58,693 nt of DNA from Legionellales bacterium UBA7366 (GTDB lineage: Bacteria; Pseudomonadota; Gammaproteobacteria; UBA7366). Every line of letters begins with the position of its first letter. The stretch's first letter is position 1. The stretch lies in NCBI GenBank assembly GCA_002469885.1, contig DKOI01000029.1, positions 1-58,693 of the forward strand, read 5' to 3'. Shown here piece by piece: positions 12,701 through 25,262 of this stretch. A model generated the notes under the pieces. The model was given only the letters and a program-made list of their open reading frames with translations. It did no database searches and had not been told where the DNA came from. Made by a program: the position numbers and the translations under genes.

Positions 12701-15700
12701 CGACACTGGATCCTATAAGCCCCCCACCATTAGCACCACCGCCTGTCACGGCACCCACTGAATAGACCTGATCAATTATGCCGCCTGAGATTTGACCTAA
12801 AAATCCACCAACCGCTCCACTATATGAGCGCACATGACCCGTTGCGTAGGCGACACTAATATCGCCTGTTGCTAGCTCGCCGCTGAGCCCACCTACGTTT
12901 AACGTGCCCGTCACATCACCCGTGGAAAATGCATTTGAAATAGAGCCATAGTTACGTCCAACCAATCCACCGACAAAGTTGTAACCTAAAATGTCCCCCG
13001 TAGCATATGAATCAGTAATGACGCCTGAAGCATTATTCACACCCACAAGACCACCGGCATGAATTCCACCAGACAAAATATCGCCCGTACTGTAAGAGTT
13101 GCTAATGTTAGCATTATTTGAACCAACTAGCCCACCATGTGAACCGCCAAGGCTACCAAGCTGTCCACGCACCATTGCAGAGGAATAAGTGTTTTCAATG
13201 ATTGAATCGACTGCTAATCCAATGAGCCCACCGACATTAGAGTAACCTGCAATATCACCACCGACTAGACCAACATTTTTAACAGTTGCGTTCGAGGTTT
13301 TACCAAAAAGCCCCGCATAATAATTTGCAAACACATCACTATCAATTCCTTTATTCACAACCAAATCATTAATTGTGTGGAACTGACCATCAAACGAACC
13401 TGAAAAATCAGCGCTGGCACTATCGCCTATTGGCTTAAAGCCTAAACCGCCATTCCATATCGAGGTTGCGCCTGCGTCAATACTATTCATCAACTGGTAA
13501 TCTGCTGTTAAGTCAATATTAACTAATTGTAATTGCGTCAACGTTCTAATGTTATTGGTATGTTGTATCTGCAAAACTGGATAAGCGTTAGATCGCAACA
13601 TGTACCATTGACCATCCACACCTGTTCGATTATTTGAAAAGTCCCAACCCGCTGTTGTAAATGTTGATTGTGTTTGAAGTTCAGTTGTTGTTTTACCTGA
13701 AACATTGGTGAGTGTGATAGAGGATTCACCTGTTGTATCAGTGTATGTTCTAGATTGATTGTTGCCTTCGAATAATCTTGCATCAAGATCGGCTGTCGTG
13801 TTTAAACTAAAGACTTCAAAGAGGAGCGCACCAATGGCATCATCGACAAAGGCTGTGTCAGTATCATAATAAGCATGCTCGATTGAAACAATATCATCAA
13901 CATCGGCATTCACAATTTCACCGATAATACCACCTGTGTTATTTGAACCAACGATTAAACCAGTGGTGTAAACATTAGTGATCTCACCTTGATAAAGTGA
14001 ACCGATTAAACCACCCACAGCATTTTCACCAATTACGTTGCCTTGCGTATAGGCATTATCAAGTGTGAAGTTGAAACCCGATGTGTTAGCAAAACCTAAC
14101 AAACCACCCACATTATCGCTCCCCCACGTGCGTGATGTGCTGTAGACTTCATCAATATCCGCATTCGCATTTACTTGACCGACCAGGCCACCAACATTAT
14201 TCACCCCTTCAACACTGCCTTCACTGTAACTGTTGCTAAGGGTTGTATCGCCAGAAATCAAACCGATTAAACCACCGACGTTATTTACACCTATAACATC
14301 ACCTGTGACAAAGAGGTTGTTAGCGCTCAAATCTTCAGTGGCTAGTCCAACCAATCTTCCGACATTTTCCCCGCCGACAACAAGCGCATTGGTGAGGCCT
14401 AGGTTGCTAATGATTGCATTCCTTGTTACACCCAATAAGCCGACATTATCAACACCACCTTGATTGATATAAAGTGAATCAACAGCATAGCCTTGTCCAT
14501 CAAATGAACCTGTAAAGGCTCTTTCGTCATTGCCTAGAGAAGCAAAACCTGCATTAAAGCTGACTCCAGGATTCCAAAAATGCGTTTCAGTCGCATCAAC
14601 GTTATCTATTAAAGAATAATCGCCATCTAGATCAACCGCCATCATTTGTAAGTCTTCGATTGTGTCGATCTCATAGGTATTGACTCCCGTTTGCATCAAC
14701 TTTAACTGCATTTGTAATTGTGGAAACCCGGCCATGATCCAGTCACCATCGTCAATGGCATCATCAGGAATACCGTTAGTTGAAAAATCCCAAGCTGCAA
14801 ACGTGTCAGGATCACGCATTTCTGCAAGAAATCTTAACGCTACATCGGTAATTGCACCGGCATTGGTATCATCACCAATCACGTCATCAGTCGTATTATC
14901 TAAAGAGAATGAATTAGAAACGGTTGCCGTGTTTTGAACTTTACCAATTAATTGACCTACGGCTGTATTACCCGTGGTCGTACCGGTGGTATACGTATTA
15001 CTAATATCATCACTTGGCGCTGAACCGTGCAAACCCACTAAACCACCTACGCTGTTATAACCATCAACATCACCGGTGGCATAAGCATTTTGAATAGTTG
15101 AATTATTCTCGCCGACTAAGCCACCGATACTGTCATCCCCTTCAACGTTACCTGTCGCAAAACTGTTTTCGATGGTTGCATAGTTAGAACCGACAAGACC
15201 ACCGTGTTCTTCACCGCTTAATGCACCATTGTTACCTGTCACGTCACCACTGGCATAACTTTCAGAGACAACCGCATCGTTATCAATAAAACCTGCGAGC
15301 CCGCCAACAGATTTGTTACCGCTTACATTACCTGTTGCATTTGATTTCGTTACAAAGCTGCCATCCAAGGCACCGACTATGCCACCCACTTGATTACCTG
15401 CCGCTACATTGCCGGAAACTGTGCCTGTTGCTGTTGACTCTGAAATCGTTGCGCCGTTAATAACAGGCGTTTCAAAGTAAGTTGCCAACCCCACTAAACC
15501 ACCAATGTTTTCGTCATACCCTTCAACAGACGCTGATGAAGATACATTGGTAATTTTAGTTTGTTGAATAGCCCCCGCAATTGACCCTACGTTTGTTTTA
15601 CCGACGATTGTTCCGCCATCCAAATTAACATTTTTAATTTCAGAATCGGCGCCTTGAACAAAACCAAACAAGCCGACGTAGTCTTCGTTATTGCGATTAA

Positions 15701-17768
15701 TGGTTAAATCACTAATCGTGTTTGAATCCCCTTCTAAAACCCCTTTAAATGATGCTGCATTATCCCCAACGGGATCGAATCCTTTATCGCTATCCCATGT
15801 GCTTGTCGCACTTGCGTCAATGTCTTTCCCTAAAGCGTAATGACCATCGAGTGCTGTACTCATTTGTTGAAGGTCATACACATCATTAATCAACATGTAG
15901 GCATTTTCATTCGTCGCATCAACGTTGCTGCTGTAGTCAGTGGCTGCTGTGAAATCTGTCGTGCCATAAAAAATATCGACATCACCCAAGGTTTTCACTT
16001 GATCGACATCATTAAACATCACCGTTCCACCGGCAACGGCTGCATTGCCGCCGGCTAACGCCGATGAGTCAACACGGTTTGATGAATCTGAATCTGCACG
16101 CAGTGTAATGTTGCTGGCTTGTGTTGCTTCGATTAAAGCGCCTAGTTCAAAAATAATGTCGTTATGCGCATAAACAAATAAATCACTGTCTGCATTACCC
16201 CATGAAATTGCCGCCGCACTTGCGAAAGTCACGTCACCATCTTCTGTGCCTGTGCTGAGAGTTTGAATGATAACATCGGTGCCTAAATCTAAACTGTCTG
16301 AAATGCTTGTTGAGTTGGATCCGTCAACAAAAAAATCTGTTGGATCTAACAACCAAGAACCGCCCTCACCGCTCACAGAGCTTGCTGTCACTGATGCGCC
16401 AGAAATATCGAGCGTTTCTTTACCGGATGTTTCAACAAAACCACCAGCACCAATAAAACCTAATGCACTCGCGCTTGCAGTTCCGTGAAATTGTGTTTCT
16501 TTATCTGCCCAAGCAACAATGGTTCCCGCATCACCTGTAACATGTGAATCTGCTTTTAGTGTCGCGCCTGATTCAACGACTGTTCTTTGTGCTGTTTGAT
16601 ATTCACCTGATCCTTGTCTATCACCGCCTAATAAAATACTACCACCACCGGATTGACCGCTGACATCAATCGACGCACTATCTTCTACATCAATAAACTG
16701 CGCGAAGACGTGCACACTACCACCGGCTTCACCTGCATCATTTCCCACGGCATCTAGAAAGCCTGAGATATTAACTGTGCTTGAATTCCCATAGACGCCA
16801 ATGTGTCCTGCAACCTCCTCGTAACTTGTCGCCCTCATGTTGCCTGACAAGTTAATAATATTATCCAACACATCAACTGCACTGCCTGTTTGAATTAGAA
16901 TCGAACCACCCTCTGCAATCACATCACCACGTTGATCAATGGCAACCATCGTATCGATAAGCGAATCCATTGAGTCATCGTACGCAGTGGGTCTGACGAG
17001 AAGTCCTTTATCAATAACAAAGTTAATTAATCCATCGCCGTAAAAATCCATTGTGTATTGCGTACCAGAACCTAAAACGACGTTCCCTAAGTTCGCGCGA
17101 ATCACACCGTAGTTAGCAACGCCTGGTGCAACCAATGCAGCAAGTCCACTTTCAGAAACTATAGTCCCTTTGTTAACAACCGAAGAAGAAATCGAAGCTT
17201 CGTAATCATCACCTGAAAATGGTTTGAATTGAACATGATTAAGGCCACTCATGAAATCATTTTGATTATGCAAATCCAGAGTTGATGCCATTACCCCTGA
17301 TACGTTCACATAACTACTGGGTCCGAAATAAATGCCATTCGGATTTAAAATCCAGACACGCCCATTGGCTGTTAGCTTTCCATAGATTTCAGAAACCGAT
17401 CCGCCAGTAACACGGTTGACAGCAATTGAATTTGAATTAGGTTGTACGAATTGCGTATGCTCACCTTCTGCAATACTAAAATCTTTCCAGTTGATCACTG
17501 CACGGTTAGAGTGTTGGAGGATTGTAGTTTTTTGTCCTTCAGCAATAATGTCAGCGCTACCTGCTGCAACCACGCCCTCTTGAGGATTGGCTGTAACAAC
17601 AGTCGAAAACAGGATTGTGGTGGTTGCTGCGATGGATAATGAAAATGACTTTACGAGTGAGCGCAGATCAGCGGTATGAAAGAACAAGGCGATTCTAGAT
17701 TGAATACGTAAGCCCTGTGTTCTCTTTGGCGTAATGCTTGACTGCTTCGAAAAATTTTCTAGCTTCAT
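729..17768 (-). CDS. Giant (5679 aa) two-partner-secretion exoprotein: N-terminal TPS domain, FHA-like beta-helix, 11 long GLUG-motif modules, unique C-terminal region
   Basis: Single uninterrupted ORF. The N-terminus has an extended signal-like region, then NPQEGVVAAGSADII..AVINWKDFSIAEGEHTQFVQPNSNSIAVNRVTGGSVSEIYGKLTANGRVWILNPNGIYF, which matches the TPS domain hallmarks INW..F, NRV.GG and NPNGI. The body contains dozens of G-G-L-[VI]-G (GLUG-type) repeats. They are organised in modules that each start with Y.L..[DN]IDAS.T..W...GF.PIG...F.G.[LF]DG.G..I..L.I.R and end with FWD[VI].TSG...S.G...M.....T....W.F.....W.M....P.LQ. Confidence 0.9.
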   Translation of the reverse strand: MKLENFSKQSSITPKRTQGLRIQSRIALFFHTADLRSLVKSFSLSIAATTTILFSTVVTANPQEGVVAAGSADIIAEGQKTTILQHSNRAVINWKDFSIAEGEHTQFVQPNSNSIAVNRVTGGSVSEIYGKLTANGRVWILNPNGIYFGPSSYVNVSGVMASTLDLHNQNDFMSGLNHVQFKPFSGDDYEASISSSVVNKGTIVSESGLAALVAPGVANYGVIRANLGNVVLGSGTQYTMDFYGDGLINFVIDKGLLVRPTAYDDSMDSLIDTMVAIDQRGDVIAEGGSILIQTGSAVDVLDNIINLSGNMRATSYEEVAGHIGVYGNSSTVNISGFLDAVGNDAGEAGGSVHVFAQFIDVEDSASIDVSGQSGGGSILLGGDRQGSGEYQTAQRTVVESGATLKADSHVTGDAGTIVAWADKETQFHGTASASALGFIGAGGFVETSGKETLDISGASVTASSVSGEGGSWLLDPTDFFVDGSNSTSISDSLDLGTDVIIQTLSTGTEDGDVTFASAAAISWGNADSDLFVYAHNDIIFELGALIEATQASNITLRADSDSSNRVDSSALAGGNAAVAGGTVMFNDVDQVKTLGDVDIFYGTTDFTAATDYSSNVDATNENAYMLINDVYDLQQMSTALDGHYALGKDIDASATSTWDSDKGFDPVGDNAASFKGVLEGDSNTISDLTINRNNEDYVGLFGFVQGADSEIKNVNLDGGTIVGKTNVGSIAGAIQQTKITNVSSSASVEGYDENIGGLVGLATYFETPVINGATISESTATGTVSGNVAAGNQVGGIVGALDGSFVTKSNATGNVSGNKSVGGLAGFIDNDAVVSESYASGDVTGNNGALSGEEHGGLVGSNYATIENSFATGNVEGDDSIGGLVGENNSTIQNAYATGDVDGYNSVGGLVGLHGSAPSDDISNTYTTGTTTGNTAVGQLIGKVQNTATVSNSFSLDNTTDDVIGDDTNAGAITDVALRFLAEMRDPDTFAAWDFSTNGIPDDAIDDGDWIMAGFPQLQMQLKLMQTGVNTYEIDTIEDLQMMAVDLDGDYSLIDNVDATETHFWNPGVSFNAGFASLGNDERAFTGSFDGQGYAVDSLYINQGGVDNVGLLGVTRNAIISNLGLTNALVVGGENVGRLVGLATEDLSANNLFVTGDVIGVNNVGGLIGLISGDTTLSNSYSEGSVEGVNNVGGLVGQVNANADIDEVYSTSRTWGSDNVGGLLGFANTSGFNFTLDNAYTQGNVIGENAVGGLIGSLYQGEITNVYTTGLIVGSNNTGGIIGEIVNADVDDIVSIEHAYYDTDTAFVDDAIGALLFEVFSLNTTADLDARLFEGNNQSRTYTDTTGESSITLTNVSGKTTTELQTQSTFTTAGWDFSNNRTGVDGQWYMLRSNAYPVLQIQHTNNIRTLTQLQLVNIDLTADYQLMNSIDAGATSIWNGGLGFKPIGDSASADFSGSFDGQFHTINDLVVNKGIDSDVFANYYAGLFGKTSNATVKNVGLVGGDIAGYSNVGGLIGLAVDSIIENTYSSAMVRGQLGSLGGSHGGLVGSNNANISNSYSTGDILSGGIHAGGLVGVNNASGVITDSYATGDILGYNFVGGLVGRNYGSISNAFSTGDVTGTLNVGGLSGELATGDISVAYATGHVRSYSGAVGGFLGQISGGIIDQVYSVGAVTGGGANGGGLIGSSVGGTVTGSFWDVDTSGKASSAGGAGVIGKSTADMQTQKTYTDVDWDFTNNNVGVEGDWYMAGSARYPRLQMENTLAQTFGIKNVNELQMIDVDLTGNYFLANNIDASETVHWNPESATDYYGFSPIALITDSDPDFDIVFDGTPFTGSLDGRGYTVSNLWFDRNNQSFVGLFAKTSGATISNLGVTDSSYIGEFYVGSLVASSDNRTRVHNVFVDENYVQGLNFVGGVLGEQADSWLSNAYADSTVFGFTNSGGLVGENRRAMILNAHSSGKVYMALIGGGIVGSNSDSSTVMNAYTKSDVFGGLDLFGDINYTSTPSTGGIAGINDDSIIINTYARGKVLGLGDVGGLVGTDNAGTVTNSYWDIATTGQTSSAGGGTGYFTAQMQTEGTYAGWSFLNNSTGVYGDWIMVKEDDYPHLQIENTMAKIFGIQNVTQLQLINVDTTGEYTLRNNIDASETAGWNNGEGFNPINNLLNEGFDGTLDGQNYTISNLSITRPSESEIGLFSRLDNGGVVKNVGLIDPTIIGNTYVGGLSGYFSPTTLRTDGLIQNSYVSGGTIGLAGVSTNVGGLVGSMREGRIIDSWSSADIVGVSDLGGVVGYMLGGSTVFDNVYSTGSVTATNSNGRVGGLVGYLYSLDNRPMMLNRVFSTGDVQNDSLLYGTGGLVGAINPALLTSTQAHIVIQDSYTTANVRGGGGNTGGMIGVVDWNANDATRLSIIDSYSAGNVTSLIHDENSSTAGLIGHIAQNATVDFNNVLWDVESSGFYAPIGFNEGIVIGSPIGITSVERADESTFSNLGWGFNNNNRGIEDTWVYLGDEDGQLTPVLQSALSYNIAEAEQLRYVTLDMQGDYVLTRDIDASDTEYWNSGAGFNPIGNDSTKFTGQLDGRGFAVRDLFINRSSTENVGMFGYIQNATIKNIGLIGGTIVGGNYTGGLVGQADVFSLITSAYNKGNVNGRNFVGGLAGLIDSGSTIENSYATDDVTGEFVVGGLVGSVFGGGIVKTSFATGDVTAASNGAGGLVGSIQVNGRVFNAYATGSVTGDNNVGGFAGSSEGGITNAYSEGFVTGAGSTGGFLGFWSAFDSNTNTYWNIQTSGQAGSAGAGVIGKTPNQMTQEATFTDWNFENSAFGLPGGEWIMAGTPHLQMEHTTDITNVNELALTVLDPFSDYVLMNDIDASQTEAWNYASGLYNGFTPIGLFAGSLDGQGFAIRDLFVRPTNTNLESIGLFSFVHLSDVSNLELINPVVTAPGVANNKVGALSGSVIASTIDNVGVINGTVYGIDRVGGLVGEATMSAISHSFATGTVSGDDVVGGLAGALRYKSSLAYVYSAATVMGDGGQVGGLVGAIESVDASNEMTVQNAYAIGDVFASSSYAGGLIGLVQNADIQEVYATGAVRGDSYVGGLFGELSGGSVSEGFATGRVTASSDAGGLFGLYLSGSSLDKLFWDEQSTKMTGAANGNNNSIAGTTGIELTAEMKDSAVLVGLDFADTWEWILPDSGTEYYDYPHLISENAYGIVSTAGNDGTTGDVVALLSDGLLTGFKGEFLTNDSYMITMREDRVPAGSHLLLFNDSSDSANVVMVTDGQELISSNGPLLLDTYMLAVSPPTAISKIIGIWAAPGDTFFISDIADAVGDYQGKGVRVEYSDDTLRFTNNTNLVTTEELVIDETFALDAHVNGGVYFLNDVSSKEFNTGLIFSGEGTATAEADVDLAYFELQDGTWDQQSIDPTAQTFYANDFRLTGGEFKRFLNSTTPFQIADVYGLQGLNTLSMTNDYTVVNNIDARVTESWNDGEGFMPIGSGGSAYQGIFNGGGHLIDGLTIHRPTENYVGLFSATTGATVEIQHIGLTNVDIIGNSNVGALVGDVNNVNPVAGASISNVFVEGRVQGMSDNVGGVIGVLGTDATIDQAYSLGSVIGGWQRTGGLIGVINSGTNNVTNSFSMSTVTGGIFGIAGGFAGDIKAGAKLSRVYAQGDVIGSNGSTNVGGFAGTYSGAMLDQAYSTGLVSGTGLNFAGFIGQNITGNITHSFWNTETSGYAIGVPPTNPQPGLNELVGLDTEGLMTQSVITSTPGNNWNFSTDWIMAGYPMLRAFNDTLVNNVIELQLMINDLSADYTLTADIDASDTVNWNAGAGFKPIGFTNGSEFIGQLDGNGYNISDLTINRPLEVSVGLFGKVAGNALAITNVNLVDIDIIANGFTGGLVGESSSNGTISDVSVSGTIDSAESWAGGLVGISNGNFNPTISNIYTDVDITGKFNLGGIAGTLSGTNATSGTTLKNVYSTGELTGLGQIGGIVGQNYIGVSIENSYSTSKINSTGSNVGAFIGFNGGNQVQNSFIDSSVNDVMNAIGGGTLGGVDKITTAELTNINTFTGWGSDFYENGGNTWIMAGLPHLQLELNLMRTSDNHFEIDDAVDLQLATLDLDGIYTLTQDIDASVTREWNCISSCTTGTPEYAGFEPIGSYNDRFLGTLDGQQHEIDGLYMKWDSGDFVALFEAVGEGALIKDLGLTSVHIEGGQRLAALAGYMTGASRVQNSYSTGNIYATNAAWAGGLIGIMQDDADSIIQNSYSTANVSGYAWSMGGLIGLFNSGKVFNSYTLGSVSNTAEVNSGFDTGGLTGIIGSQATIINSYAAGPITGNNAGGLMGSSQGFGGTVKNSFWDVDTTGQATSAAGTGLTHAEALTKSTYTNAGWDFTSIWQIPEGIDAPRLIAEGNLDAISGQVYDSSLSASAQNIGVVLGGGSSIARHTVSLSDGSYSFALSAREMENAAGDEVIIFVDNNTGFTANTLFRKEDDVDVTDLNLIQDTIIAGYENGTDVDMALLNDATKNYMSSSIGYTVSGSTLDTSSNAFIANNEYSTGSNETIISTSDRGIAFNDTLELSSGDITLDNNASTGNVYLNADILSTPADTYNLNIDAGPGAIVLDGNVIKPNDISFLANEAVIAGNLQLVNTTAFDFPLHFRGDTVFSSTSTGATALNFQEAISSDYSMLTLNMLIGKQILAGSTVDLDTFYLERGVWAQDLLNPTLQTFSARDFRLGDVDVAVFLRGNFNSFPNIFISDVYGLQGIGSTSLTLNPGANISLSENIDASGTEHWYDGAGFRPIGDSSNPYQGTFDGQDFSITGLTILTTNKNTGLFGYTDSASIHNVELMDADIDSTETYTGALIGQAVNGTTVTQVHSSGVVYGGNNTGGLIGDLNNSAVFESFSIADVYSTGDNVGGLVGVLGGSATATDTYARGDVTALDAVGGLVGTQTGTSLIKTSYSSGNVTATDIVVAGQGALVGEKTGGDIENSYALKDAGLGVNVGLNMVGSDGLILGLKDDTQMRKASTFDGFDFASIWEMLGDPENSVDYPVFQFQDLFSIYGRVLDTLNMNLPAETVNLASNGVIQAGVTTVSSAATDPNNNYALIFSEKDFVGDEAILLFLSSGVANTVFELYDDAGVIPSFNLDIKQGEVRAVSFADSINEPSNTLLSTAAINTLGYTVAGTDVTVDSGLAFHSLADTSFTVDGDITTTAANIQFDTIASVNSGKNLSTKAGDLLFNSDLTLNGNNVLSTSAVNVTFNNTASFDGSNTFNADGGNLHFAGVTNFVGGPNVITTTGGAIDFDSNVNLDNSINNFNTAGGDVTFGGPLANTGTSAVTIAAGTGDLIFTSGNPIGTALDPITLTVNSVNHVELPVGLFEVVKTQVASSVHLSEAGRFNDAMNLLKVGGTLDIANTYPGGEPFIIEADEGILLKLENPMLNVPIVDIQGDVNFLTDATLTSDTSFDVAGNLIFADGTQIVFNALNDNISFMDPATVNGPGDLTLNSDTPVDLFAQIGNVTRLNSIHFPGVLNVVGDSSVSAGTVLFDDAITNSTPVDLTVSAPASGGFIRFGGQVSSPGTPMTLAVPEGGTAHLYAPIYTPLSLHQVYVVNRFNTGRLTDAWAIMRTSADFTQPFGISRPGLSRIGLPYNPLYPYHLNEMDEKLKVFLVPNKIIYIHDELQSNLTYVPGPYNDVISGFIY
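2660..15900 (-). repeat. Eleven diverged tandem coding modules (roughly 300-450 aa each) inside the giant exoprotein gene (approximate bounds)
   Basis: I counted 11 occurrences of the module-start motif: GKDIDASATSTW, IDNVDATETHFW, MNSIDAGATSIW, ANNIDASETVHW, RNNIDASETAGW, TRDIDASDTEYW, MNDIDASQTEAW, VNNIDARVTESW, TADIDASDTVNW, TQDIDASVTREW, SENIDASGTEHW. The repeats are diverged at protein level, and I saw no long identical DNA repeats. Confidence 0.8.
16780..17590 (-). other. Region encoding the TPS (haemagglutination activity) secretion domain of the giant exoprotein (approximate bounds)
   Basis: Corresponds to residues ~60-330 of the 5679-aa ORF, covering the motifs INWKDF, NRVTGG and ILNPNGIYF and the following beta-helix coils. 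Boundaries are estimated by eye. Confidence 0.6.
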
Positions 17769-18871
17769 ACTCTATCCACTTTGACTTAATCTATATGACA
17801 TCTTTATTAGTGAACTCTTTTTAAGCTTAGTCCAAATATTATGATTACACCGGCGAGCTAATTTGATTCGTGAATCTATTCAACCTGTTAAGGCGTAAAA
17901 TATATTTTCGTATGATTTGCCAATGTATTAACAGCAAAAAACGACGATAGGTGCCTGAATATGGTTTTTTATTGGACTTCTGAGTTATTCTTGAACGTTA
18001 TCGGTTTGGGAAAGCCTGTTTCAGAAATAATACGAAATTTGACGGAGTTGTTTTGAGAGGCTAATGCGACAGAAAAAATACACTATTTTCAAGATGAGAG
18101 TTTAATAAGTTATTAATCCGTGACTTAGCGCATTGTTGAACAAAATACAAACTGGCAAGCGAGCTTTGGAATAAGAAAAAATGGATAATTCAGTAGGAAT
18201 TCGTGAATTTTAGGCACATATAATAGCAAAAAAACCCTATATTGGAACTTTTATAGGACAATCGAATCATTTAAAAAGCAAAAAACCGTTTTTGCCAGCT
18301 TAGCCAGCAAATATTTGTGTATTTTATTGACTGGACAACGCCCGAATTAAGCTGTGTAAGGCATTGTTTTTGGGTGCGAAAAAAAGCACCAAAAACAAAC
18401 AGAAAATAACCTTTTTAGATTTTATTTTCGATGAAAATACTCGTTCATATTTTTATCATTCCATATTATAGAAAAATATCGACAGGAAAAACGAGACAAT
18501 TATGAACAGTGAAAAACTCTTTAAATCCCCCAAATCCGAAACCTCATCAACTTATCAAAAGCACCTGTGGAACGCACATAAAACCGCCCCAGGGAGTTTT
18601 ATGGCTATATATGTATCCTCACTTCAAATGCGCACGTCAACAATTTATAGACCAGCCATACAAATAAACTCCCGTCAAAACAAGATTATAACCTATGAAT
18701 TTCAGAGACTTATGAACCTCGAATTTGCACAGTGAAAAAAACTGTTAATACTCAGTGAGTTCGGATAGGAATTGACTTGAATGCAATAAAGTTTAAAACG
18801 TGCCTTAAATCAATTAACTAGCTGTATATTCACTTCGAAACATCATACTCAAGCTTATTATCGATGGAGCA

Positions 18872-18887
18872 TGTTTCACGTGAAACT
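18872..18887. promoter_or_regulatory. parS: parS-like ParB binding site (TGTTTCACGTGAAACT, 15/16 to the palindromic consensus)
   Basis: Direct read of the sequence. The consensus is TGTTNCACGTGAAACA. Confidence 0.75.
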
Positions 18888-18900
18888 TTAAAACGATTCC

Positions 18901-18916
18901 TGTTCCACGTGGAACG
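18901..18916. promoter_or_regulatory. parS: parS-like ParB binding site (TGTTCCACGTGGAACG, degenerate)
   Basis: Direct read. The core GTTCCACGTGGAAC is a perfect 14-bp palindrome, and the site lies 13 bp from the previous one. Confidence 0.65.
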
Positions 18917-19452
18917 CTCAATCACACTCTCACGCCCTGCTCTATTTATGAACAAAAAAGCGCACTAAAAACTGAACCACACACCGAAAAAGAAACAAAT
19001 CGATAAGCGCAAAACGGTAACTTTACTCAAAAAAACGAAGGATGAGACCGACCTGGGACTATACAATATTTACCCCTTCATCATCACGAAAAAACTCTAA
19101 AAAAAAGTCTTTTGCGCTAGATTGAATATCGTTTTTTTAGTAATTATCGTTAGTAAATTTTGACCAAATCATGACCCTGTGAAAATATAACGAAAGCTGA
19201 AAATAATCAATTCTAGACCTTACAAATACATCGGATCTTTTTAAAAATTTCCAAATTAATCATGGGACGAAAGAAGAACAGTCTTTCTTCCGCCTAAATG
19301 CGAGACTGCCTAAATAAAGCCCGCTGAAAAATATCATGGGAAAAACATCTTTTCGATATTGTTTTTTGTTGAAAATGAACAGAAGGACATTAATGGTCAA
19401 AAATCTTTCTGAATCAATTCAAAGCAAGAATATAAGTCGATTAAGTGCTACA

Positions 19453-19478
19453 TTATCCACATATTTTTTGGTGGATAA
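19453..19478. promoter_or_regulatory. Inverted pair of DnaA boxes: TTATCCACA (perfect), tatttttt spacer, GGTGGATAA (complement TTATCCACC, 1 mismatch)
   Basis: Direct read. The consensus DnaA box is TTATCCACA. A further 1-mismatch box, TGTGGCTAA, lies at about 20451-20459. Confidence 0.6.
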
Positions 19479-19723
19479 ACGATGCAACACAGTTTTGAAT
19501 AACGCTAGACGCTATAAAAATTTAGATAATTAAATCTCGCCGATTAACAATCATACAATCGATAGATATCTTTAAAAGAAACCTTTAGAACATAAGCAAA
19601 AAAAGAGCCCATCTGGTGATGTCAATCATTAGAGGCTTGGCTGTTGAAATTCTAGATATATTCGACATTATGCAGCAGCTATTCTTAGTACACCAACCCT
19701 AGCTATACGCATTCAAATAATAA

Positions 19724-19739
19724 TGTTTCACGTGGAACA
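19724..19739. promoter_or_regulatory. parS: parS site TGTTTCACGTGGAACA (complement TGTTCCACGTGAAACA, exact consensus)
   Basis: Direct read. Flanking A/T extend it to the 18-mer ATGTTTCACGTGGAACAT. Confidence 0.85.
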
Positions 19740-19792
19740 TTTCAGACCTGTTTATTTTCGTAACATCGGGAAAAAGGGCGTTTTTAAGCAAA

Positions 19793-19808
19793 TGTTTCAC
19801 GTGGAACA
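19793..19808. promoter_or_regulatory. parS: parS site TGTTTCACGTGGAACA (exact consensus)
   Basis: Direct read. Same 18-mer as at 19723-19740, 53 bp downstream of that site. Confidence 0.85.
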
Positions 19809-20765
19809 TGATAAAAACAGTAAGCTATTGAATATTGACTGCTAAAAACCCGATAGCACTACTAAAATTTGTAATTAATGCCCTAAAAATGTAATTGAAG
19901 TTGGAATAGATGCAAGCGCATATTGGTAGGAGCTGGGAACAGATCTTGAAGACTCATAACAAATCCGTCCAGCTAATTAAGAAGAGCTAAAAAATAAAAG
20001 GGCGCTAACACCGCAATGGAATCATTTATCTTGTATTTATTAAACAGAACAAAGACTAAAAGTTACTGTTATTTATGTAGCAAGCGACCTTAAGAACCAT
20101 CGAAATATCTACAGCCTAGCGTCAAACACCTCTTCTTATTAACTAAAGTGAAGAAAATCTCAAAAAAAACAAGAAATTTTTTCACATCAAACACATGACG
20201 TTTAGTTTGGCAAAGATACCTGATCAGGTCTAAAGGCACCTGGAAATTACTCTTAGTAATGCGAATAATCTTCGAGTCATCTAACTGAAATATTCGATAT
20301 TAATTTCCCTGTGAATAGGCAGCATTTTAAGAAGAAAAAAACGATGTAAGCAGTCCCTTAAAAAGAAAATTTAATATCGTTTTTTAAATGAATATCGATA
20401 GGGCGAATCTTAGTGAAGTACGCTTAAAAACTCAAAACTCCGGAAACTTTTGTGGCTAATTTTAGCGCCCTAATATATAACGATAATCATTAAATTATCG
20501 GTAGTGTTTCTTGATGAATTAAAAAATAAGAATAATTCATCATGTGATGACCTTAATTTAGCTGTGCGCAAATTTGAACATTCGATTCTCGCTGGGATTA
20601 CCGAAATTTTAAATTAAATAAAACACGAAAGCTCGAGGCAAAAGCGAGAAAAGGCTTCTGAGTCTGAAGCCTCGTGCTCAACCAGCTGGAATTTTCGTGA
20701 TATTCGAATTTTTTTAAAGGGTATTCTGAGTACCCAGACCCTTCTAAGTCCCTTATCAACATAGA

Positions 20766-20781
20766 TGTTTCACGTGGAACA
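20766..20781. promoter_or_regulatory. parS: parS site TGTTTCACGTGGAACA (exact consensus)
   Basis: Direct read. Same 18-mer ATGTTTCACGTGGAACAT. Confidence 0.85.
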
Positions 20782-20836
20782 TTTAGCCTTTGCCTAACAC
20801 CTCCAACTTGCCTGTTCTTGGAGATTTTAAGTGACA

Positions 20837-20852
20837 TGTTTCACGTGGAACA
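20837..20852. promoter_or_regulatory. parS: parS site TGTTTCACGTGGAACA (exact consensus), 16 nt downstream of the recF stop codon
   Basis: Direct read. Same 18-mer, 55 bp from the previous site. Confidence 0.85.
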
Positions 20853-20868
20853 TGTAAAAACTATTAAG

Positions 20869-21942
20869 CTATTGAATATTCCCAGCCCTTATCTTAAGGA
20901 GCTTGCTAGGGAGTGTATTTAGATGGGGTAAAATTGTTTTTGCGTCTGTACAAGTGATAAAAAGCTGGCTTTGCTGGTCGGAAAGCAACTGTAGCACTTT
21001 TCCTTGGTTTAAGTAATCTAGCTCTGCCACTAAGTCATCTAGAAGGTAAATACAACTTTTTTGCTTAACGGATTTAAACAACAGTCCCTGTGCAATTTTC
21101 ATTGCACAGATGAATAGCTTTTGCTGACCACGTGAAAGAACTTCCTTAGCAGGGTGTTTACCCACTTTAATCTTAAGATCCGCATGATGTGGCCCGAACT
21201 GGGTATAGCCAAGTGATGCATCCCTGATAAAACCATCTGTAAGAGCGTCTTCGTATGACTTATCTGCAGGCCAACCTGAATAGTAACGTATGTCGAGGTT
21301 AGGGAGATCAATTAACTCCGGTAAGATCTTATATAAGGTTTCACAGAACAGCTCTATATAGCTTTTGCGTGCGGCATCAATCCTTAAACCGTTCTCTATG
21401 ACTTCCGCATTCCAAGACAGTATCTCGTCACGCTTGCACTGTGTCCTCAATGCCATGTTGCGTTGCTTCACACATCTTGAATAATTCTTCCATACATTCA
21501 CAAAATTATGTTCCACGTGAAACACTCCCCAGTCAACGAAGCTCCGTCGCAAACCTGGCCCACCTTCAAGCAAACTAAAGCTATGTGGTTCCAACAACTG
21601 TAATGGCAACACCTCAGCAAGCTTTGATGCTGAATAAACATCCTCACCGGCAATACGCATACGACTGCGCCCATTAGCAGAGCGCTCAACACCTACCGGT
21701 TTGTTTTGTTGCTCAACGTCAAGCACATTAGCAAACAGAGAGAACGCGTCAGCATTGTGTGAAACAATTCTATTGATGATATGTGTTCTAAAGGACTTCC
21801 CTAAACCCAAGAAGTGGATTGCTTCTAGAAAGCTTGTCTTCCCACTACCGTTTTCTCCCTGAATGATGTTGACGTTACTTAACTCTGTAGAGACTGATTC
21901 TAAGTTTCTAAAGGTATTTATATTAAGCTGTGTAATAGACAT
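20869..21942 (-). CDS. recF: DNA replication and repair protein RecF
   Basis: 357 aa. N-terminus MSITQLNINTFRNLESV, Walker A GENGSGKTSFLEAI, and a C-terminal LLDD.. Walker B/signature region. Located directly downstream of dnaN. Confidence 0.95.
   Translation of the reverse strand: MSITQLNINTFRNLESVSTELSNVNIIQGENGSGKTSFLEAIHFLGLGKSFRTHIINRIVSHNADAFSLFANVLDVEQQNKPVGVERSANGRSRMRIAGEDVYSASKLAEVLPLQLLEPHSFSLLEGGPGLRRSFVDWGVFHVEHNFVNVWKNYSRCVKQRNMALRTQCKRDEILSWNAEVIENGLRIDAARKSYIELFCETLYKILPELIDLPNLDIRYYSGWPADKSYEDALTDGFIRDASLGYTQFGPHHADLKIKVGKHPAKEVLSRGQQKLFICAMKIAQGLLFKSVKQKSCIYLLDDLVAELDYLNQGKVLQLLSDQQSQLFITCTDAKTILPHLNTLPSKLLKIRAGNIQ
21509..21524. promoter_or_regulatory. parS: parS site TGTTCCACGTGAAACA (exact consensus, opposite orientation) embedded in the recF coding sequence
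   Basis: Direct read. On the coding (minus) strand it reads GTG TTT CAC GTG GAA CAT, encoding V-F-H-V-E-H of the RecF segment DWGVFHVEHNF. Confidence 0.8.
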
Positions 21943-22170
21943 AGGTAGGGGGTTAAACTCTTAAATTAATAACGAGACGCCTGGACTAATATACCTTCGC
22001 TAGAGGAGTATTTCTATAGTGTTTTCTAACCACAGTATGACAAACGCTTTTTCCACAAAAAAAACATGTTATTTGCTAGAAATCCCTCTCCAATTTCTTT
22101 CCACTCAAACCGTGCAACTAAATGCGATTGCTTTTCATAACCAGAATGATGCCATACTTGATGTTGTAGC

Positions 22171-22295
22171 GCTGCGCATTTCCTGCAGGCGCATCGCCTT
22201 CGCGCTGCTTGTGCAGGCTACATTAGAAGAAAAACACCAAGAACGATGAGGCATGTCGTAGCCCGCATAAGAGAACAACGTGAACGCCTGCGGGG
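22171..22295. repeat. MITE/REP-like element, family A, copy 1 (about 125 bp with ~40-bp imperfect terminal inverted repeats)
   Basis: The left arm CCTGCAGGCGCATCGCCTTCGCGCTGCTTGTGCAGGCTAC pairs with the right arm GTAGCCCGCATAAGAGAACAACGTGAACGCCTGCGGGG. Confidence 0.75.
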
Positions 22296-22320
22296 TTCAA
22301 ATCAACACATGAGTTGATTC

Positions 22321-22446
22321 GCTTCGCGCATTTCCTGCAGGCGCATCGCCTTCGCGCTGCTTGTGCAGGCTACATTAGAAGAAAAACACTCTGAACGATA
22401 GACTTGTCGTAGCCCGCACAAGAGAACGAAGTGAACGCCTGCGGGG
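22321..22446. repeat. MITE/REP-like element, family A, copy 2 (tandem to copy 1, near-identical)
   Basis: GCTTCGCGCATTTCCTGCAGGCGCATCGCCTTCGCGCTGCTTGTGCAGGCTACATTAGAAGAAAAACAC...GTCGTAGCCCGCACAAGAGAACGAAGTGAACGCCTGCGGGG. The left ~75 bp are identical to copy 1. Confidence 0.8.
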
Positions 22447-22470
22447 CTTCAATAAAAAAATGCTCTGGAA

Positions 22471-22546
22471 GTCCGGGAGATTCCCGAAGGCGATAAAGAT
22501 ATTTAATTATATAGATCCTGGATCAAGTCCGGGACAACGGGGATTC
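22471..22546. repeat. Small palindromic TCCGGG-type repeat (family B-like)
   Basis: GTCCGGGAGATTCCCGAAGG...AGTCCGGGACAACGGGGATTC. Motifs are related to the elements at 27977-28031 and 57491-57550. Weaker case than family A. Confidence 0.4.
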
Positions 22547-22564
22547 TAATAGCAAAAAAATCAA

Positions 22565-23680
22565 TTAAAGACGCATTGGCATGATGACGTATAACGCCTC
22601 TAGCGTATCATCCGTAATGTCTGCTTCTACTAATACACTGCTGTTTGCATCGGTGAATGAGACGCGCACAAGCGGTGATGACACGGCACCTAAAACGTCT
22701 TGCAGGTAAGTGACGTTAAAGCCCACTTCCAAAGCGGAGCGTGGGTAATCGATTGTTAACTCTTCTTCGGCAGTTTCTTTTTCTGAGTTATGCGCGAAGA
22801 TTTTTAATGTGTTGTTGTCGAAGACAAGTCGAACACCGCGGTATTTATCATGCGATAGAATTGCAACGCGGGTGAGTGCTTGTTTTAAGTCGTTGCGATC
22901 GACGAGTACGCAGTGAGCAGATTTTCTTGGAATCACACGTTGGAAATCTGGGAAGCGGCCTTCGATTAATTTTGATGTGAAGGTGAATGCATCAGAGGTG
23001 ACACGAATGTGGTGTTCGCCGATGTGCACTGTCACTTCTTTGTCGGTGTGTGCAAGCAAGCGCATAAGCTCCAGTATGCCTTTACGCGGCACGATCACTT
23101 GAAGGTCTTTATCTACAGACACTTGTGGTGCAGGGCATTTACAAAGTGCTAGGCGGTGGCCATCGGTTGCGACCATTTGAAGTGCGCCGTTATTCACATG
23201 AAAAAGAATGCCGTTCAAGTAGTAGCGCACGTCTTGCTGTGCCATAGCAAAATGTGTTTTTTCAATTAATTGTTTGAGTGCAGTTTCAGGCAGAGTAAAC
23301 GTATTTTCTGCAGCTTCATTTTCAACGGCAGGAAAATCCTCTGCCGATAAGGTTGCGAGCACGAAGCGGCTACGGCCTGATTTTACGAGAAGTCGATCTT
23401 TATCGAGCGTTAGTTTTACTGCACCGTTTTCAGGTAATGATTTACAAATATCAACAAGCTTTCGCGCAGGCACGGTGATGCGCCCGGTTTGTGTCACGTT
23501 TTCAACGGAGACACGGCCAATGAGCTCGACCTCTAAATCGGTCGCCGTGAGCGCCAGCTCTTGCTCACCTAAAGACAATAAAACATTTGATAGAATGGGC
23601 AAGGTTTGTTTTTTTTCAACCGCACCGCTAATTAACTGCAGTGGATTTAATAAGGTTTCACGTTGTATTGTAAATTCCAT
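22565..23680 (-). CDS. dnaN: DNA polymerase III beta sliding clamp
   Basis: 371 aa. MEFTIQRETLLNPLQLISGAVEKKQTLPILSNVLL is a typical DnaN N-terminus, and the C-terminus ends ...YVIMPMRL. Located downstream of dnaA. Confidence 0.97.
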   Translation of the reverse strand: MEFTIQRETLLNPLQLISGAVEKKQTLPILSNVLLSLGEQELALTATDLEVELIGRVSVENVTQTGRITVPARKLVDICKSLPENGAVKLTLDKDRLLVKSGRSRFVLATLSAEDFPAVENEAAENTFTLPETALKQLIEKTHFAMAQQDVRYYLNGILFHVNNGALQMVATDGHRLALCKCPAPQVSVDKDLQVIVPRKGILELMRLLAHTDKEVTVHIGEHHIRVTSDAFTFTSKLIEGRFPDFQRVIPRKSAHCVLVDRNDLKQALTRVAILSHDKYRGVRLVFDNNTLKIFAHNSEKETAEEELTIDYPRSALEVGFNVTYLQDVLGAVSSPLVRVSFTDANSSVLVEADITDDTLEALYVIMPMRL

Positions 23681-23697
23681 AATGATAATCCTTTTGG

Positions 23698-25077
23698 TTA
23701 GGTTGACAACGTTCTTAATAAATTTTTGTAATCTTCTGCAATGTCTGTTGTTGTTTCAATTAAGTCTTTAATTTTACGGCAGGCATGCAAAACGGTTGTA
23801 TGATCGCGGCCGCCAAATGAATCTGCAATTTCTGGCAAGCTGTGACTTGTTAATTCTTTTGCGAGTGCCATCGCCATTTGGCGAGGGCGGGCGATAGAGC
23901 GGTTACGTCTTTTTGAGAGCAAGTCTGCGACTTTAATTTTGTAATATTCCGCTACGGTTTTTTGGATATTGTCGATCGTCACGAGGCGATCTTGCAACGT
24001 AAGAAGATCACGCAGCGCTTCTTTAACGAAGTCTAGTGTAATATCTTTTCCGGTGAAGTGTGCATTCGCAATGACACGCTTGAGTGCACCTTCGAGTTCA
24101 CGCACGTTTGAGCGAATACGTTTAGCGATAAAGAAAGCGACTTCATAAGGCAGTTCAATTCTAGACTGTTCTGCTTTATTCATTAAGATAGCCACACGGG
24201 TTTCGAGTTCTGGCGGCTCAATCGCAACGGTAAGCCCCCAACCGAATCGAGATTTAAGGCGTTCTTCTAGCCCATTAATCTCTTTGGGATAACGATCACA
24301 ACTCAAGATAATTTGTTGACGACCTTCTAGAAGAGCGTTGAAGGTATGGAAAAATTCTTCTTGAGAGCGCTCTTTACCTGCAAAGAATTGAATATCATCA
24401 ATTAACAGGGCATCTACGGAGCGGTAATGGCGTTTAAATTGATCCATGCGATTAGATTGAAGCGCTTTGACCATTTCTGCAACAAAGCGCTCGGAGTGCA
24501 AATAGAGTACGCGTGCATTGGGGTTACTTGCTTCAATCGTATTACCGACTGCGTGCATTAAATGGGTTTTACCCAATCCAACGCCACCGTACAGGAATAC
24601 GGGGTTATAAGCATCTGCTGGATTTTCTGCCACCTGTTGTGCGGCTGCGCGGGCTAATTGATTCGACTTACCTTCCACGAAGGTATCGAATGTGAGGTTT
24701 GGATTAATATTACTACGATGCGGAGTAACTGTCGTATCACGCGGTGTGGCGTAACCATAATTTGATGTTGCGGGTGCGCGCGCCGGTTGCGCTTTAGCAA
24801 TCGGTGCTTGGGCTTCTTTTGCACTACCAACGCTTAAATGTACGCTAGGAACTGCATCATCTTGAAACAAATCAGCGAGTATATCGTTTATACGCGTTAG
24901 AAATTTATCTTTTACCCAATCCAAGACGAAGCGATTCGGTGCTAAAAGATATAACTTGTTATCTTTATACTCAACTTGTAAAGGGCGTATCCATGTGTTG
25001 ATTTGTTGTGCGGGAAATTCTGCTTGGAGATGGCTTAAGCATTCTTCCCATACGGTGACAGTTGCGGTTGCAGACAC
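23698..25077 (-). CDS. dnaA: Chromosomal replication initiator DnaA (start revised to GTG at 25077)
   Basis: AAA+ Walker [14 protein letters not shown] and C-terminal DNA-binding region [15 protein letters not shown]. The track ORF starts at a TTG 51 codons upstream and reads through hydrophobic junk. The GTG at 25077-25075 is preceded by AGGAG with 8-nt spacing and gives [34 protein letters not shown], a typical DnaA N-terminus (459 aa). Confidence 0.95.
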
Positions 25078-25156
25078 AGATAAAACTCCTAAGCAAAAGA
25101 AAAAATAACACGGGTGGGTTAGGGTACCAAAAAACCATGGGCGAAGGGAAGTAGGC

Positions 25157-25177
25157 TTTTCCACAATTTTATCCACA
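25157..25177. promoter_or_regulatory. Two tandem DnaA boxes (TTTTCCACA and TTATCCACA) in the dnaA/polA divergent promoter region
   Basis: Direct read: TTTTCCACA at 25157-25165 and a perfect TTATCCACA at 25169-25177, 80-100 bp upstream of the revised dnaA start. Consistent with dnaA autoregulation. Confidence 0.7.
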
Positions 25178-25262
25178 GCGAATGTCATAGAAGAGCCTAT
25201 TATTTTGCAAAGAAAATGCATACAATTCAAAGCAATTTTAATGGCTTAAGGTAACAAATTCT

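What the first reader, a model, noticed from the sequence alone, without database searches (positions are those of the whole stretch)
19723..20880. The parS-doublet module is duplicated together with the last codons of recF
Segment 19792-19836 is ATGTTTCACGTGGAACATGATAAAAACAGTAAGCTATTGAATATT. Segment 20836-20880 is ATGTTTCACGTGGAACATGTAAAAACTATTAAGCTATTGAATATT. They form a ~45-bp direct repeat, roughly 90 percent identical by eye. The second copy covers the recF stop codon and its last three codons (N-I-Q-stop). The first copy therefore carries an orphan duplicate of the recF 3-prime end about 1.04 kb away from the gene. The upstream halves of the two doublets (19723-19791 versus 20765-20835) also keep residual similarity: the same 18-mer, then TTCAGACC/TTAGCC, then ...TTTTAAG before the second 18-mer. 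This is a footprint of tandem duplication of a ~1-kb unit, or of a site-specific insertion next to recF. It suggests the parS array grew by amplification.
Basis: seen in the sequence. Interest (0 to 1): 0.6.

Follow-up and report, generated by a model that had tools for sequence, protein, structure and literature searches.

The report
Duplicated parS centromere module behind recF
A roughly 190-bp piece of DNA holding two chromosome-partition (parS) sites and the last codons of recF occurs twice, 1 kb apart; this is an old local duplication that enlarged this bacterium's centromere, an ordinary way for such site clusters to grow.

Summary
The 45-bp repeat matches in 43 of 46 aligned columns. 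It is the best-kept end of a 192/194-bp direct repeat (19645-19836 vs 20687-20880, 68-71% identical, E about 1e-17). Similarity in the flanks is significant with parS removed. The copy next to recF contains N-I-Q-stop. The distal copy carries the same 16-mer as an orphan, and the 60-120 nt before it weakly resemble the recF 3' coding sequence (p about 0.01).

The two copies share descent. They form a second centromere module in a 3.1-kb gene-free stretch of an uncultured marine gammaproteobacterium. Relatives, like Pseudomonas aeruginosa, carry this parS inside the last recF codons (K-MFHVEH-G). This lineage lost that site and gained doublets outside the gene.

The duplication is neither recent nor ongoing. 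Nine public contigs are 100% identical here, and the five that span the whole desert all show the same 3100-bp spacing. A ~1-kb tandem unit is neither shown nor excluded, because the 850 bp between the copies has no detectable homolog. Nothing supports a mobile element or an attachment site.

Two short boxes outside parS are conserved in both copies and in an 87%-RecF relative; their role is unknown. Interest is low to moderate.

The parts
20869..21942 (-). recF (357 aa). The stop TAG is at 20869-20871. The C-terminus is ...KLLKIRAGNIQ*.
   Evidence: TIGR00611 RecF, E 3e-102; translation. The C-terminus aligns with K-MFHVEH-G of relatives.
20865..20880 (-). 'Tail' box of copy B: AATATTCAATAGCTTA on the recF strand. 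It comprises codons N-I-Q, the stop codon and 4 nt.
   Evidence: Exact 16-mer shared with 19821-19836. AATATTCAATA is invariant in A, B and relative L045.
20836..20853 (.). parS-b of copy B (ATGTTTCACGTGGAACAT). It lies 15 nt after the recF stop codon (the 16-bp core 17 nt after it), in frame with recF.
   Evidence: Perfect match to TGTTNCACGTGNAACA; frame checked.
20765..20782 (.). parS-a of copy B, 71 bp start to start from parS-b.
20687..20764 (.). Distal flank of copy B. It contains the box GTACTCAGAATA (20722-20733, recF strand).
   Evidence: Flank-only alignment to 19645-19722: 0 of 2000 shuffles reach the score. The box is invariant in A, B and L045 and found almost nowhere else in the genome.
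20640..20673 (-). Intrinsic-terminator-like hairpin (GAGGCUUC-N7-GAAGCCUU followed by a U-rich run). This is the probable end of the recF transcript, just beyond module B.
   Evidence: Fold. The simple terminator scan did not call it, so this is inferred.
19821..19836 (-). Orphan recF tail of copy A, the same 16-mer, with no gene attached.
19837..19920 (-). Possible decayed remnant of recF 3' coding sequence adjoining the orphan tail.
   Evidence: Anchored comparison with the last 60-120 nt of recF gives p = 0.007-0.03 against random segment pairs. Identity on the expected diagonal is 0.40-0.52, against a background of 0.26. The same register is found with the L045 recF. Weak.
19792..19809 (.). 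parS-b of copy A.
19723..19740 (.). parS-a of copy A, 69 bp start to start from parS-b.
19645..19722 (.). Distal flank of copy A. It contains the box GTACTAAGAATA (19680-19691, recF strand).
19600..19640 (-). Weak hairpin followed by U7 after copy A. It may be a decayed copy of the terminator.
   Evidence: -7.8 kcal/mol, no better than shuffles. Inference only.
21508..21525 (.). Ancestral parS inside recF, encoded by codons V-F-H-V-E-H. It is not part of the duplication.
   Evidence: Relatives have a site at the same place. P. aeruginosa parS1/parS2 lie inside recF (PMC5521831).
18871..18917 (.). Third parS doublet: two sites with one mismatch each, 29 bp apart. It has no demonstrable homology to copies A and B outside parS.

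Best explanation
Copy A (19645-19836, probably extending to about 19920) is a paralog of the module that lies directly behind recF (copy B, 20687-20880). A local DNA duplication copied four things to a position 1042-1044 bp further from the gene: the 3' end of recF, the two parS sites behind it, a short distal flank, and probably the terminator.

The geometry fits a tandem duplication of a ~1.04-kb unit whose gene-side breakpoint lay about 60-120 nt inside recF. The copies have the same orientation, and an orphan tail is preceded by a recF-like remnant. I rate that sub-model about as likely as a shorter copy of about 0.3 kb landing 0.85 kb away.

After the duplication the unconstrained parts decayed. 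Three elements stayed intact: the four parS 18-mers (identical, same orientation), the 16-nt tail box and the GTACTNAGAATA box. Each module therefore most likely works as a pair of loading sites for the CTP-dependent ParB clamp. Together with the site inside recF and a third doublet, they form a seven-site origin-proximal centromere.

Shown: the homology, its extent, the stability across samples, and the ancestral in-gene position of parS. Inferred: the direction B to A, the mechanism of duplication, ParB binding, and selection on the two boxes.
For: Homology and uniqueness:
- The repeat has E about 1e-17, and flank-only tests give 0 of 2000 shuffles on each outer flank.
- The module occurs only twice in the genome.
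- All perfect parS sites in the 2.07-Mb assembly lie in this 2.65-kb stretch.

Direction B to A:
- The tail AAT-ATT-CAA-TAG encodes the conserved RecF end G-N-I-Q in both the window and the 87%-identical relative. The residues G-x-[IVM] are ancestral RecF positions, so the orphan derives from recF.
- A weak recF-coding remnant sits in the expected register next to the orphan.

Lineage history:
- Relative L045 keeps module B with the same layout: NIQ-stop, parS doublet 71 bp apart, and the box.
- More distant relatives carry parS inside the last recF codons, 624 nt from the internal site, as in P. aeruginosa. In the window that codon position reads LLKIRAG, so the in-gene parS is lost.

Age:
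- A-B identity is 71%, B-L045 58% and A-L045 60%. Four-fold degenerate sites of recF are 61% identical between the two species.
- The duplication is therefore about as old as, or somewhat younger than, that species split. It is not recent.

Stability:
- Nine public contigs are 100% identical over 17700-22000 where they overlap. The five that span the whole desert all have a 3100-bp gap.

Generality:
- With parS masked, 13 of 56 testable metagenomic parS clusters show flank similarity between neighbouring sites. This is a crude test on loci selected for having a doublet.
Against: - No homology is detectable between the two intervals that a 1-kb tandem duplication would have copied. The global alignment gives z about 1-1.8; only one 33-nt block, 19121-19153 vs 20369-20401, is 82% identical.
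- The recF-coding remnant is only 40-52% identical, lower than the 62-65% of the module flanks. Either the flanks are constrained or the remnant is not real.
- A and B are more alike than the orthologs B and L045. Gene conversion between the copies could produce this and would blur any dating.
- No canonical chromosomal ParB was found in the 91%-complete assembly. The only ParB-like gene is a divergent, plasmid-type parAB on another contig at 61 bits. rsmG, the usual neighbour of parAB, is also missing, so the locus probably lies in an assembly gap. ParB binding here is therefore unproven.
- Copy A could not be examined in any relative: the L045 contig ends 719 bp after recF.
Confidence: 0.78

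Rival explanations
1. Recent or ongoing tandem amplification of a ~1-kb unit, with a copy number that varies in the population.
For: The copies are in direct orientation and 1042-1044 bp apart. The three doublets are spaced 852 and 1042 bp apart.
Against: The copies are only 68-71% identical. The intervening intervals show no significant similarity. The third doublet has no flank homology. Contigs from at least five samples cover both modules, the five that span the desert all have the same 3100-bp spacing, and none has a single difference.
Confidence: 0.04
2. Site-specific integration of a ~1-kb element into the 3' end of recF. As with islands in tRNA genes, the element would bring a copy of the gene's end, and the repeat would be attL/attR.
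For: An exact 16-nt core overlaps the stop codon of the target gene and recurs at the far side of a gene-free ~1-kb insert.
Against: - There is no integrase or any conserved ORF between the repeats.
- There is no tRNA.
- The region has no phage or plasmid similarity and no other copy in the genome.
- The similarity runs about 180 bp to one side of the core, including two parS sites. That is not expected of attL/attR, which share only the core.
- The relative L045 already has the module directly behind recF.
Confidence: 0.05
3. The module is a small non-autonomous mobile element (MITE-like) that carries two parS sites and landed twice.
For: The unit is discrete, about 190 bp. RNAalifold paired the tail box with the distal box (TATTC/GAATA plus GG/CC), which looks like terminal inverted repeats.
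Against: The inverted repeat is not better than chance in any of the three copies (p = 0.19-0.65). There are only two copies in the genome. One 'terminus' consists of conserved RecF codons. No target-site duplication is evident.
Confidence: 0.03
4. Concerted evolution. The duplication is much older than it looks, and gene conversion seeded at the identical parS 18-mers keeps parts of A and B alike.
For: A-B identity (71%) exceeds that of the orthologs B-L045 (58%). Identity is highest right next to parS-b, at 43 of 46 columns. All four parS 18-mers are identical and in the same orientation.
Against: The 11 nt between parS-b and the perfectly conserved 16-mer differ at three positions, counting an indel. 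A single conversion tract would not leave such a patchy pattern. This modifies the main explanation rather than replacing it.
Confidence: 0.2

Closest known systems
Pseudomonas aeruginosa origin-proximal parS1-parS4 cluster (parS1 and parS2 inside recF, parS3/4 intergenic)
   Same: It uses the same 16-bp ParB site and lies in the same neighbourhood (dnaA-dnaN-recF). One site sits inside recF at the V-F-H-V-E-H codons, and further sites lie just beyond the gene (PMC5521831).
   Different: Here the second in-gene site, at the C-terminal codons, has been lost. Paired sites outside the gene replace it, one pair of which has been duplicated together with the recF tail. gyrB no longer follows recF; it is on contig C40.
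Multi-site chromosomal centromeres in general (1 to more than 20 parS near the origin; Livny et al. 2007 as cited in PMC7333895)
   Same: Canonical parS sites are clustered close to the replication genes. The number of sites varies between lineages.
   Different: Here the flanks still show how one step of the growth happened. [quoted passage not shown]
Direct repeats of a gene's 3' end at the borders of integrated islands (tRNA- or gene-end-targeting integrases)
   Same: An exact short repeat covers the stop codon of an intact gene and recurs as an orphan about 1 kb away.
   Different: There is no integrase or cargo. Homology extends about 180 bp on one side only, and the repeat includes functional parS sites.
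Plasmid P1 parS, a composite centromere in which an IHF site lies between ParB boxes (from my own knowledge; not tested here)
   Same: This is only an analogy for the novel reading. Conserved non-parS boxes flank the ParB sites, and the tail box ATTCAATAGCTTA matches the IHF consensus WATCAANNNNTTR at 8 of 9 specified positions, as judged by eye from the sequence.
   Different: The ParB family and site type differ. The IHF-like match was noticed after the fact and is of low information content. No binding data exist.

Membership tests
Chromosomal parS (ParB/Spo0J binding site) | 16-bp palindrome matching tGTTNCACGTGNAACa | tested here: met
   Five perfect sites and two one-mismatch sites, against 0.33 expected in the window. 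These are the only perfect sites in the assembly.
Chromosomal parS (ParB/Spo0J binding site) | Origin-proximal location | tested here: met
   The sites lie within 5 kb of dnaA-dnaN-recF. The position of oriC itself is not established.
Chromosomal parS (ParB/Spo0J binding site) | Cognate canonical ParB encoded in the genome | tested here: inconclusive
   The only ParB-like gene is divergent and plasmid-type (TIGR00180, 61 bits) and sits next to a RepA-like ParA on C103. rsmG is also absent from the 91%-complete assembly, so the usual gidAB-parAB locus is probably unassembled.
Chromosomal parS (ParB/Spo0J binding site) | ParB binding and spreading or sliding from the site | not testable with these tools
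   This needs ChIP-seq or in-vitro binding.
Local (tandem or segmental) duplication | Two copies in direct orientation with homology outside the functional motif | tested here: met
   Flank-only tests: 0 of 2000 shuffles on both outer flanks.
Local (tandem or segmental) duplication | The whole interval between the copies is also duplicated (required for a true 1-kb tandem unit) | tested here: inconclusive
   Intervals 19920-20640 and 18917-19598 align with z about 1-1.8. Neutral sequence is expected to be saturated, given the 61% identity at four-fold sites to the nearest relative.
Local (tandem or segmental) duplication | Copy-number polymorphism between strains or samples (expected for a recent amplification) | tested here: not met
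   All spanning contigs have the same 3100-bp spacing and are 100% identical.
Integrated element with att duplication | Recombinase or cargo genes between the repeats | tested here: not met
   No ORF gives a Pfam hit and no ORF is conserved. There are no phage or plasmid matches and no tRNA.
Integrated element with att duplication | Similarity confined to a short identical core | tested here: not met
   The similarity runs about 190 bp at 68-71% identity.
MITE-like repeat | Terminal inverted repeats and many genomic copies | tested here: not met
   The inverted repeat is not above chance, and there are only two copies.

The most novel reading that the evidence does not exclude
The duplicated unit may be a composite centromere module rather than just two parS sites. 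Two further short boxes are kept in both paralogs and in a relative whose neutral sites are about 40% diverged. One is AATATTCAATAGCTTA, which overlaps the recF stop codon and is perfectly kept even in the orphan copy, where it encodes nothing. The other is GTACTNAGAATA, about 35 nt beyond the distal parS. Under this reading they are binding sites for a second, unidentified DNA-binding factor (an IHF-like bender is one candidate) that shapes or insulates the ParB complex, and the module was duplicated and retained as a functional whole.
Probability: 0.15. Interest if true: 0.55.

Novelty: new member of a known kind. Interest (0 to 1): 0.25.

Why it matters
Why the number of parS sites differs so much between bacteria, and what makes them cluster, are stated open questions in the field (PMC7333895). 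This locus preserves a readable footprint of one step. The centromere site first moved from inside recF to just behind it, and then the recF-end-plus-doublet segment was copied about 1 kb away. A crude survey here suggests that such footprints are frequent: 13 of 56 metagenomic parS clusters showed them. Local duplication is thus probably a routine way for centromere arrays to grow. The finding is a clean, datable example rather than a new mechanism. The only element that could lead further is the pair of conserved non-parS boxes.

Tried and rejected
1. recF pseudogene between the copies. tblastn of RecF and a nucleotide alignment of 19837-20686 against recF gave nothing. Only the 60-120 nt next to the orphan tail give a weak anchored signal.
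2. Homology between the two inter-doublet intervals. Not significant.
3. A third, inverted copy at doublet 1. The BLAST hit at 72% identity rests on parS itself. Flank-only tests were negative except for one uncorrected p = 0.008 match in a non-equivalent position.
4. An inverted recF-like 28-mer at 19912-19939 (71% identical). I judged it chance, because its score of 12 is about the expected maximum for this search space.
5. An inverted-repeat bracket or long-range hairpin joining the two boxes. Not above chance.
6. Conserved small ORFs in the module. The 79-aa ORF 20598-20837 (minus strand) and the 40-aa ORF 19723-19845 (plus strand) are not conserved between A, B and L045, and have no Pfam hit.
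7. Rfam. No family matched; the best hit had E 0.57.
8. Phage and plasmid similarity. None.
9. Finding copy A in the 87% relative. The L045 contig ends too early. A search with the N-terminus of the neighbouring giant protein found no close homolog, the best being 52% identical. The 69% relative's contig has no retrievable DNA.
10. A metagenome scan for parS doublets. It returned at least 120 loci, none related to this module beyond parS.
12. A duplicated recF tail next to the extra parS of the 49% relative (L047). No flank homology.
Full report
**Setting.** The window is a whole 58.7-kb contig (C76) of a 2.07-Mb, 137-contig, 91%-complete metagenome-assembled genome with 43% GC. The gene order on the minus strand is as follows:
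- a 5679-aa giant ORF at 729-17768;
- a 3100-bp stretch without genes at 17769-20868;
- recF at 20869-21942, dnaN at 22565-23680 and dnaA at 23698-25230;
- polA runs divergently from 25263.

The nearest RecF proteins in reference genomes are 39-43% identical and come from uncultured Coxiellaceae-like or unclassified Gammaproteobacteria. No genome of the same order is held. gyrB, which follows recF in these relatives, sits on another contig here, C40:26516-28939.

**The observation.** Both 45-nt strings are at the stated coordinates. They align with 43 identical columns of 46. The last 16 nt, TAAGCTATTGAATATT, are identical and occur nowhere else in the window or the assembly. The recF stop codon is 20869-20871 and the last three codons (N-I-Q) are 20872-20880, so the recF-side copy does cover them.

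A sensitive self-comparison shows that the repeat is four times longer than reported. It spans 19645-19836 vs 20687-20880, at 68% identity over 204 columns, E 1.4e-18. It is still E 4e-17 against the whole assembly, where it is the only such pair. Tests with the parS 18-mers excluded gave these results:
- The 78-nt distal flank is far above chance: score 13 against -17.8 +/- 4.5, with 0 of 2000 shuffles reaching it.
- The 27-nt recF-side flank is also far above chance: score 18 against -4.0 +/- 3.1, 0 of 2000.
- The spacer between the two parS sites is not significant: 416 of 2000.

The homology is real.

**What the sites are.** The pattern TGTTNCACGTGNAACA occurs five times perfectly and twice with one mismatch between 18872 and 21524, against 0.33 expected in the window. 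These are the only perfect sites in the assembly. They form three pairs, 29, 69 and 71 bp apart, plus one site inside recF. This is the canonical ParB centromere site.

One caveat applies. The only ParB-like gene in the assembly is a divergent one at 61 bits, next to a plasmid-type ParA on contig C103. rsmG, the usual neighbour of chromosomal parAB, is also missing. The canonical locus therefore probably lies in the unassembled 9%, but ParB binding is an inference.

**The ancestral state.** In 26 of the 36 recF loci from other members of the class, perfect parS sites lie in or at recF. Typically one is about 400 nt into the gene and one is in its last codons, 624 nt further on. The C-terminal site is encoded as K-M-F-H-V-E-H-G. 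In Pseudomonas aeruginosa, parS1 and parS2 likewise lie inside recF (PMC5521831).

In the window the internal site is kept, at 21509 on the V-F-H-V-E-H codons. The C-terminal motif now reads K-L-L-K-I-R-A-G, with no parS left. The protein alignment shows a graded loss across the relatives:

| RecF identity to window | C-terminal motif |
|---|---|
| 87% | KVMHIEAG |
| 69% | KVLKMEQG |
| 49% | QLFHVEQG |

In place of the lost site, a parS lies 17 nt after the stop codon. It happens to be in frame (…NIQ*LNSFYMFHVKHVT*). This lineage thus moved its second recF site out of the gene. That is the background on which the duplication happened.

**Comparison with the nearest relative.** A 2.35-kb Logan contig (L045, run DRR337520) encodes a RecF 87% identical in protein and 83% in DNA. 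Behind its recF it has the same layout: …G-N-I-Q-stop, a parS 16 nt later, and a second parS 71 bp on (with one mismatch). About 35 nt further lies GTACTCAGAATACC. A three-way alignment of copy B, copy A and L045 leaves four invariant blocks: AATATTCAATA, the two parS sites, and GTACT-AGAATA. Both non-parS blocks are essentially unique to the two modules in the genome. The contig ends 719 bp after recF, so it cannot show whether this relative has a copy A.

**Age.** Over the module, A and B are 71% identical (score 48), B and L045 58% (score 11), and A and L045 60% (score 22). Four-fold degenerate sites of recF are 61% identical between the two species. The two paralogs are thus somewhat closer to each other than the orthologs are. 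Either the duplication is about as old as, or younger than, the species split, or gene conversion has kept the copies alike. Either way it is old, not a recent amplification.

**How much was copied.** The 850 bp between the copies shows no similarity to recF at the protein or DNA level. An anchored test gives a different answer. It compares the 60-120 nt that precede the orphan tail with the last 60-120 nt of recF, in the register fixed by the tail. The result is p = 0.007-0.03 against random segment pairs. Identity on that diagonal is 0.40-0.52, against a background of 0.26 +/- 0.07. The same register is found independently with the L045 recF.

On the other side, module B is followed on the recF strand by a good terminator-like hairpin at 20640-20673. 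Module A is followed by a weak hairpin with a U7 run. The copied segment was therefore probably about 300 bp or more, running from inside the recF 3' end to the terminator.

This geometry is what a tandem duplication of a 1044-bp unit would leave. That model also predicts homology between 19920-20640 and 18917-19598. The global alignment there is not significant, at z 1-1.8. One 33-nt block, 19121-19153 vs 20369-20401, is 82% identical and collinear. Because neutral DNA here is close to saturation, the tandem 1-kb model can be neither shown nor excluded. The third doublet has no flank homology with the others.

**Stability.** The exact RecF sequence is found on 12 public contigs. Nine were retrieved, from at least five different samples; one sample is labelled marine metagenome. 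All are 100% identical to the window wherever they overlap 17700-22000. The five that span the whole gene-free stretch all have exactly 3100 bp between recF and the giant gene. There is no copy-number variation and no assembly problem.

**Rivals.**
- Integrated element with att repeats. This fits the exact 16-nt core over a stop codon. Against it, there is no recombinase, conserved ORF, tRNA or phage or plasmid similarity, and the homology runs 180 bp to one side.
- MITE. RNAalifold paired the two boxes, which suggested this. The inverted repeat is not above chance, there are only two copies, and one 'end' consists of conserved RecF codons.
- Gene conversion. This remains a plausible modifier of the main explanation.

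**The unexplained part.** The orphan 16-mer is perfectly conserved although it encodes nothing. Meanwhile the 11 nt between it and parS differ at three positions, and the neighbouring recF-derived sequence has decayed to about 45% identity. At a background identity of about 55-60%, a run of 16 somewhere in the module has a probability of roughly 0.01-0.05 (my estimate from the alignment). Together with the GTACTNAGAATA box, this may mark binding sites for another factor. The tail matches the IHF consensus at 8 of 9 specified positions, but I noticed that after the fact. It is a lead only.

**Context and verdict.** parS pairs 45-75 bp apart are common: at least 120 metagenomic loci in a capped scan, with no preferred 69-71-bp spacing. 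In a crude test with parS masked, 13 of 56 testable clusters showed flank similarity between neighbouring sites. Earlier notes of this scan describe similar local duplications next to recF in other genomes; I did not check them.

The finding is a real and well-preserved, but ordinary, footprint of how a bacterial centromere cluster grows. It bears on a question that a review lists as open (PMC7333895). It does not reveal a new kind of element.

Noticed in passing
window 20884-20905 (recF codons 347-354) and 20824-20871: The C-terminal in-gene parS of gammaproteobacterial recF (K-MFHVEH-G) has been lost here; the codons now read KLLKIRAG. A perfect parS lies 17 nt after the TAG stop and is in frame, so reading through the stop would give ...NIQ-x-LNSFYMFHVKHVT*. 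The 87% and 69% relatives show intermediate C-termini, KVMHIEAG and KVLKMEQG.
   Followed up: partly
window 21943-22564, especially 22174-22452: The recF-dnaN spacer holds two tandem copies of a ~152-bp GC-rich repeat (92% matches). The repeat recurs on more than 25 other contigs of the assembly and at 619-681 of this window. It looks like a dispersed MITE- or REP-like family.
   Followed up: partly
window 19121-19153 and 20369-20401; also 20478-20503 (inverted): A 33-nt block (ATTGAATATCGTTTTTTTAGTAATTATCGTTAG) recurs at 82% identity once in each inter-doublet interval. The 8-mers AAAAACGA and AATATCGA are about 20-fold enriched in the 3.1-kb desert. Similar AAAAAACGATA strings occur downstream of recF in relative L045. 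This may be a binding motif for an unknown factor.
   Followed up: partly
window 19453-19478, 20451-20459, 25157-25177: A perfect DnaA box faces a one-mismatch box across 8 nt between the parS doublets. Two more boxes lie just upstream of dnaA. The dnaA-polA gap is too short for a usual oriC, so the origin may lie in the gene-free stretch. GC skew over the contig gives no clear answer.
   Followed up: no
genome contig C103:10942-12900 (locus L035): The only ParB homolog in the assembly is a divergent 342-aa protein (TIGR00180, 61 bits) next to a RepA/ParA-type ATPase, which suggests a plasmid-like partition pair. rsmG is absent from the assembly, so the canonical gidAB-parAB locus is probably unassembled.
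   Followed up: partly
genome contig C40:26516-28939: gyrB has left the dnaA-dnaN-recF cluster and sits elsewhere behind unrelated divergent genes. In the 49% relative (L047), recF is followed by convergent parC/parE-like genes and one extra intergenic parS.
   Followed up: partly
loci L170-L178: Contigs from at least five public samples (ENA and Logan; one labelled marine metagenome) are 100% identical to the window over up to 4.3 kb of mostly non-coding DNA. The same clone is therefore present in all of them.
   Followed up: partly
loci L141 (about 2500-3800) and L121 (about 980-1320): Some metagenomic contigs carry very dense parS arrays built from repeated units. L141 has at least 16 sites in 1.3 kb. 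L121 has units of about 85 bp that are nearly identical outside parS.
   Followed up: no
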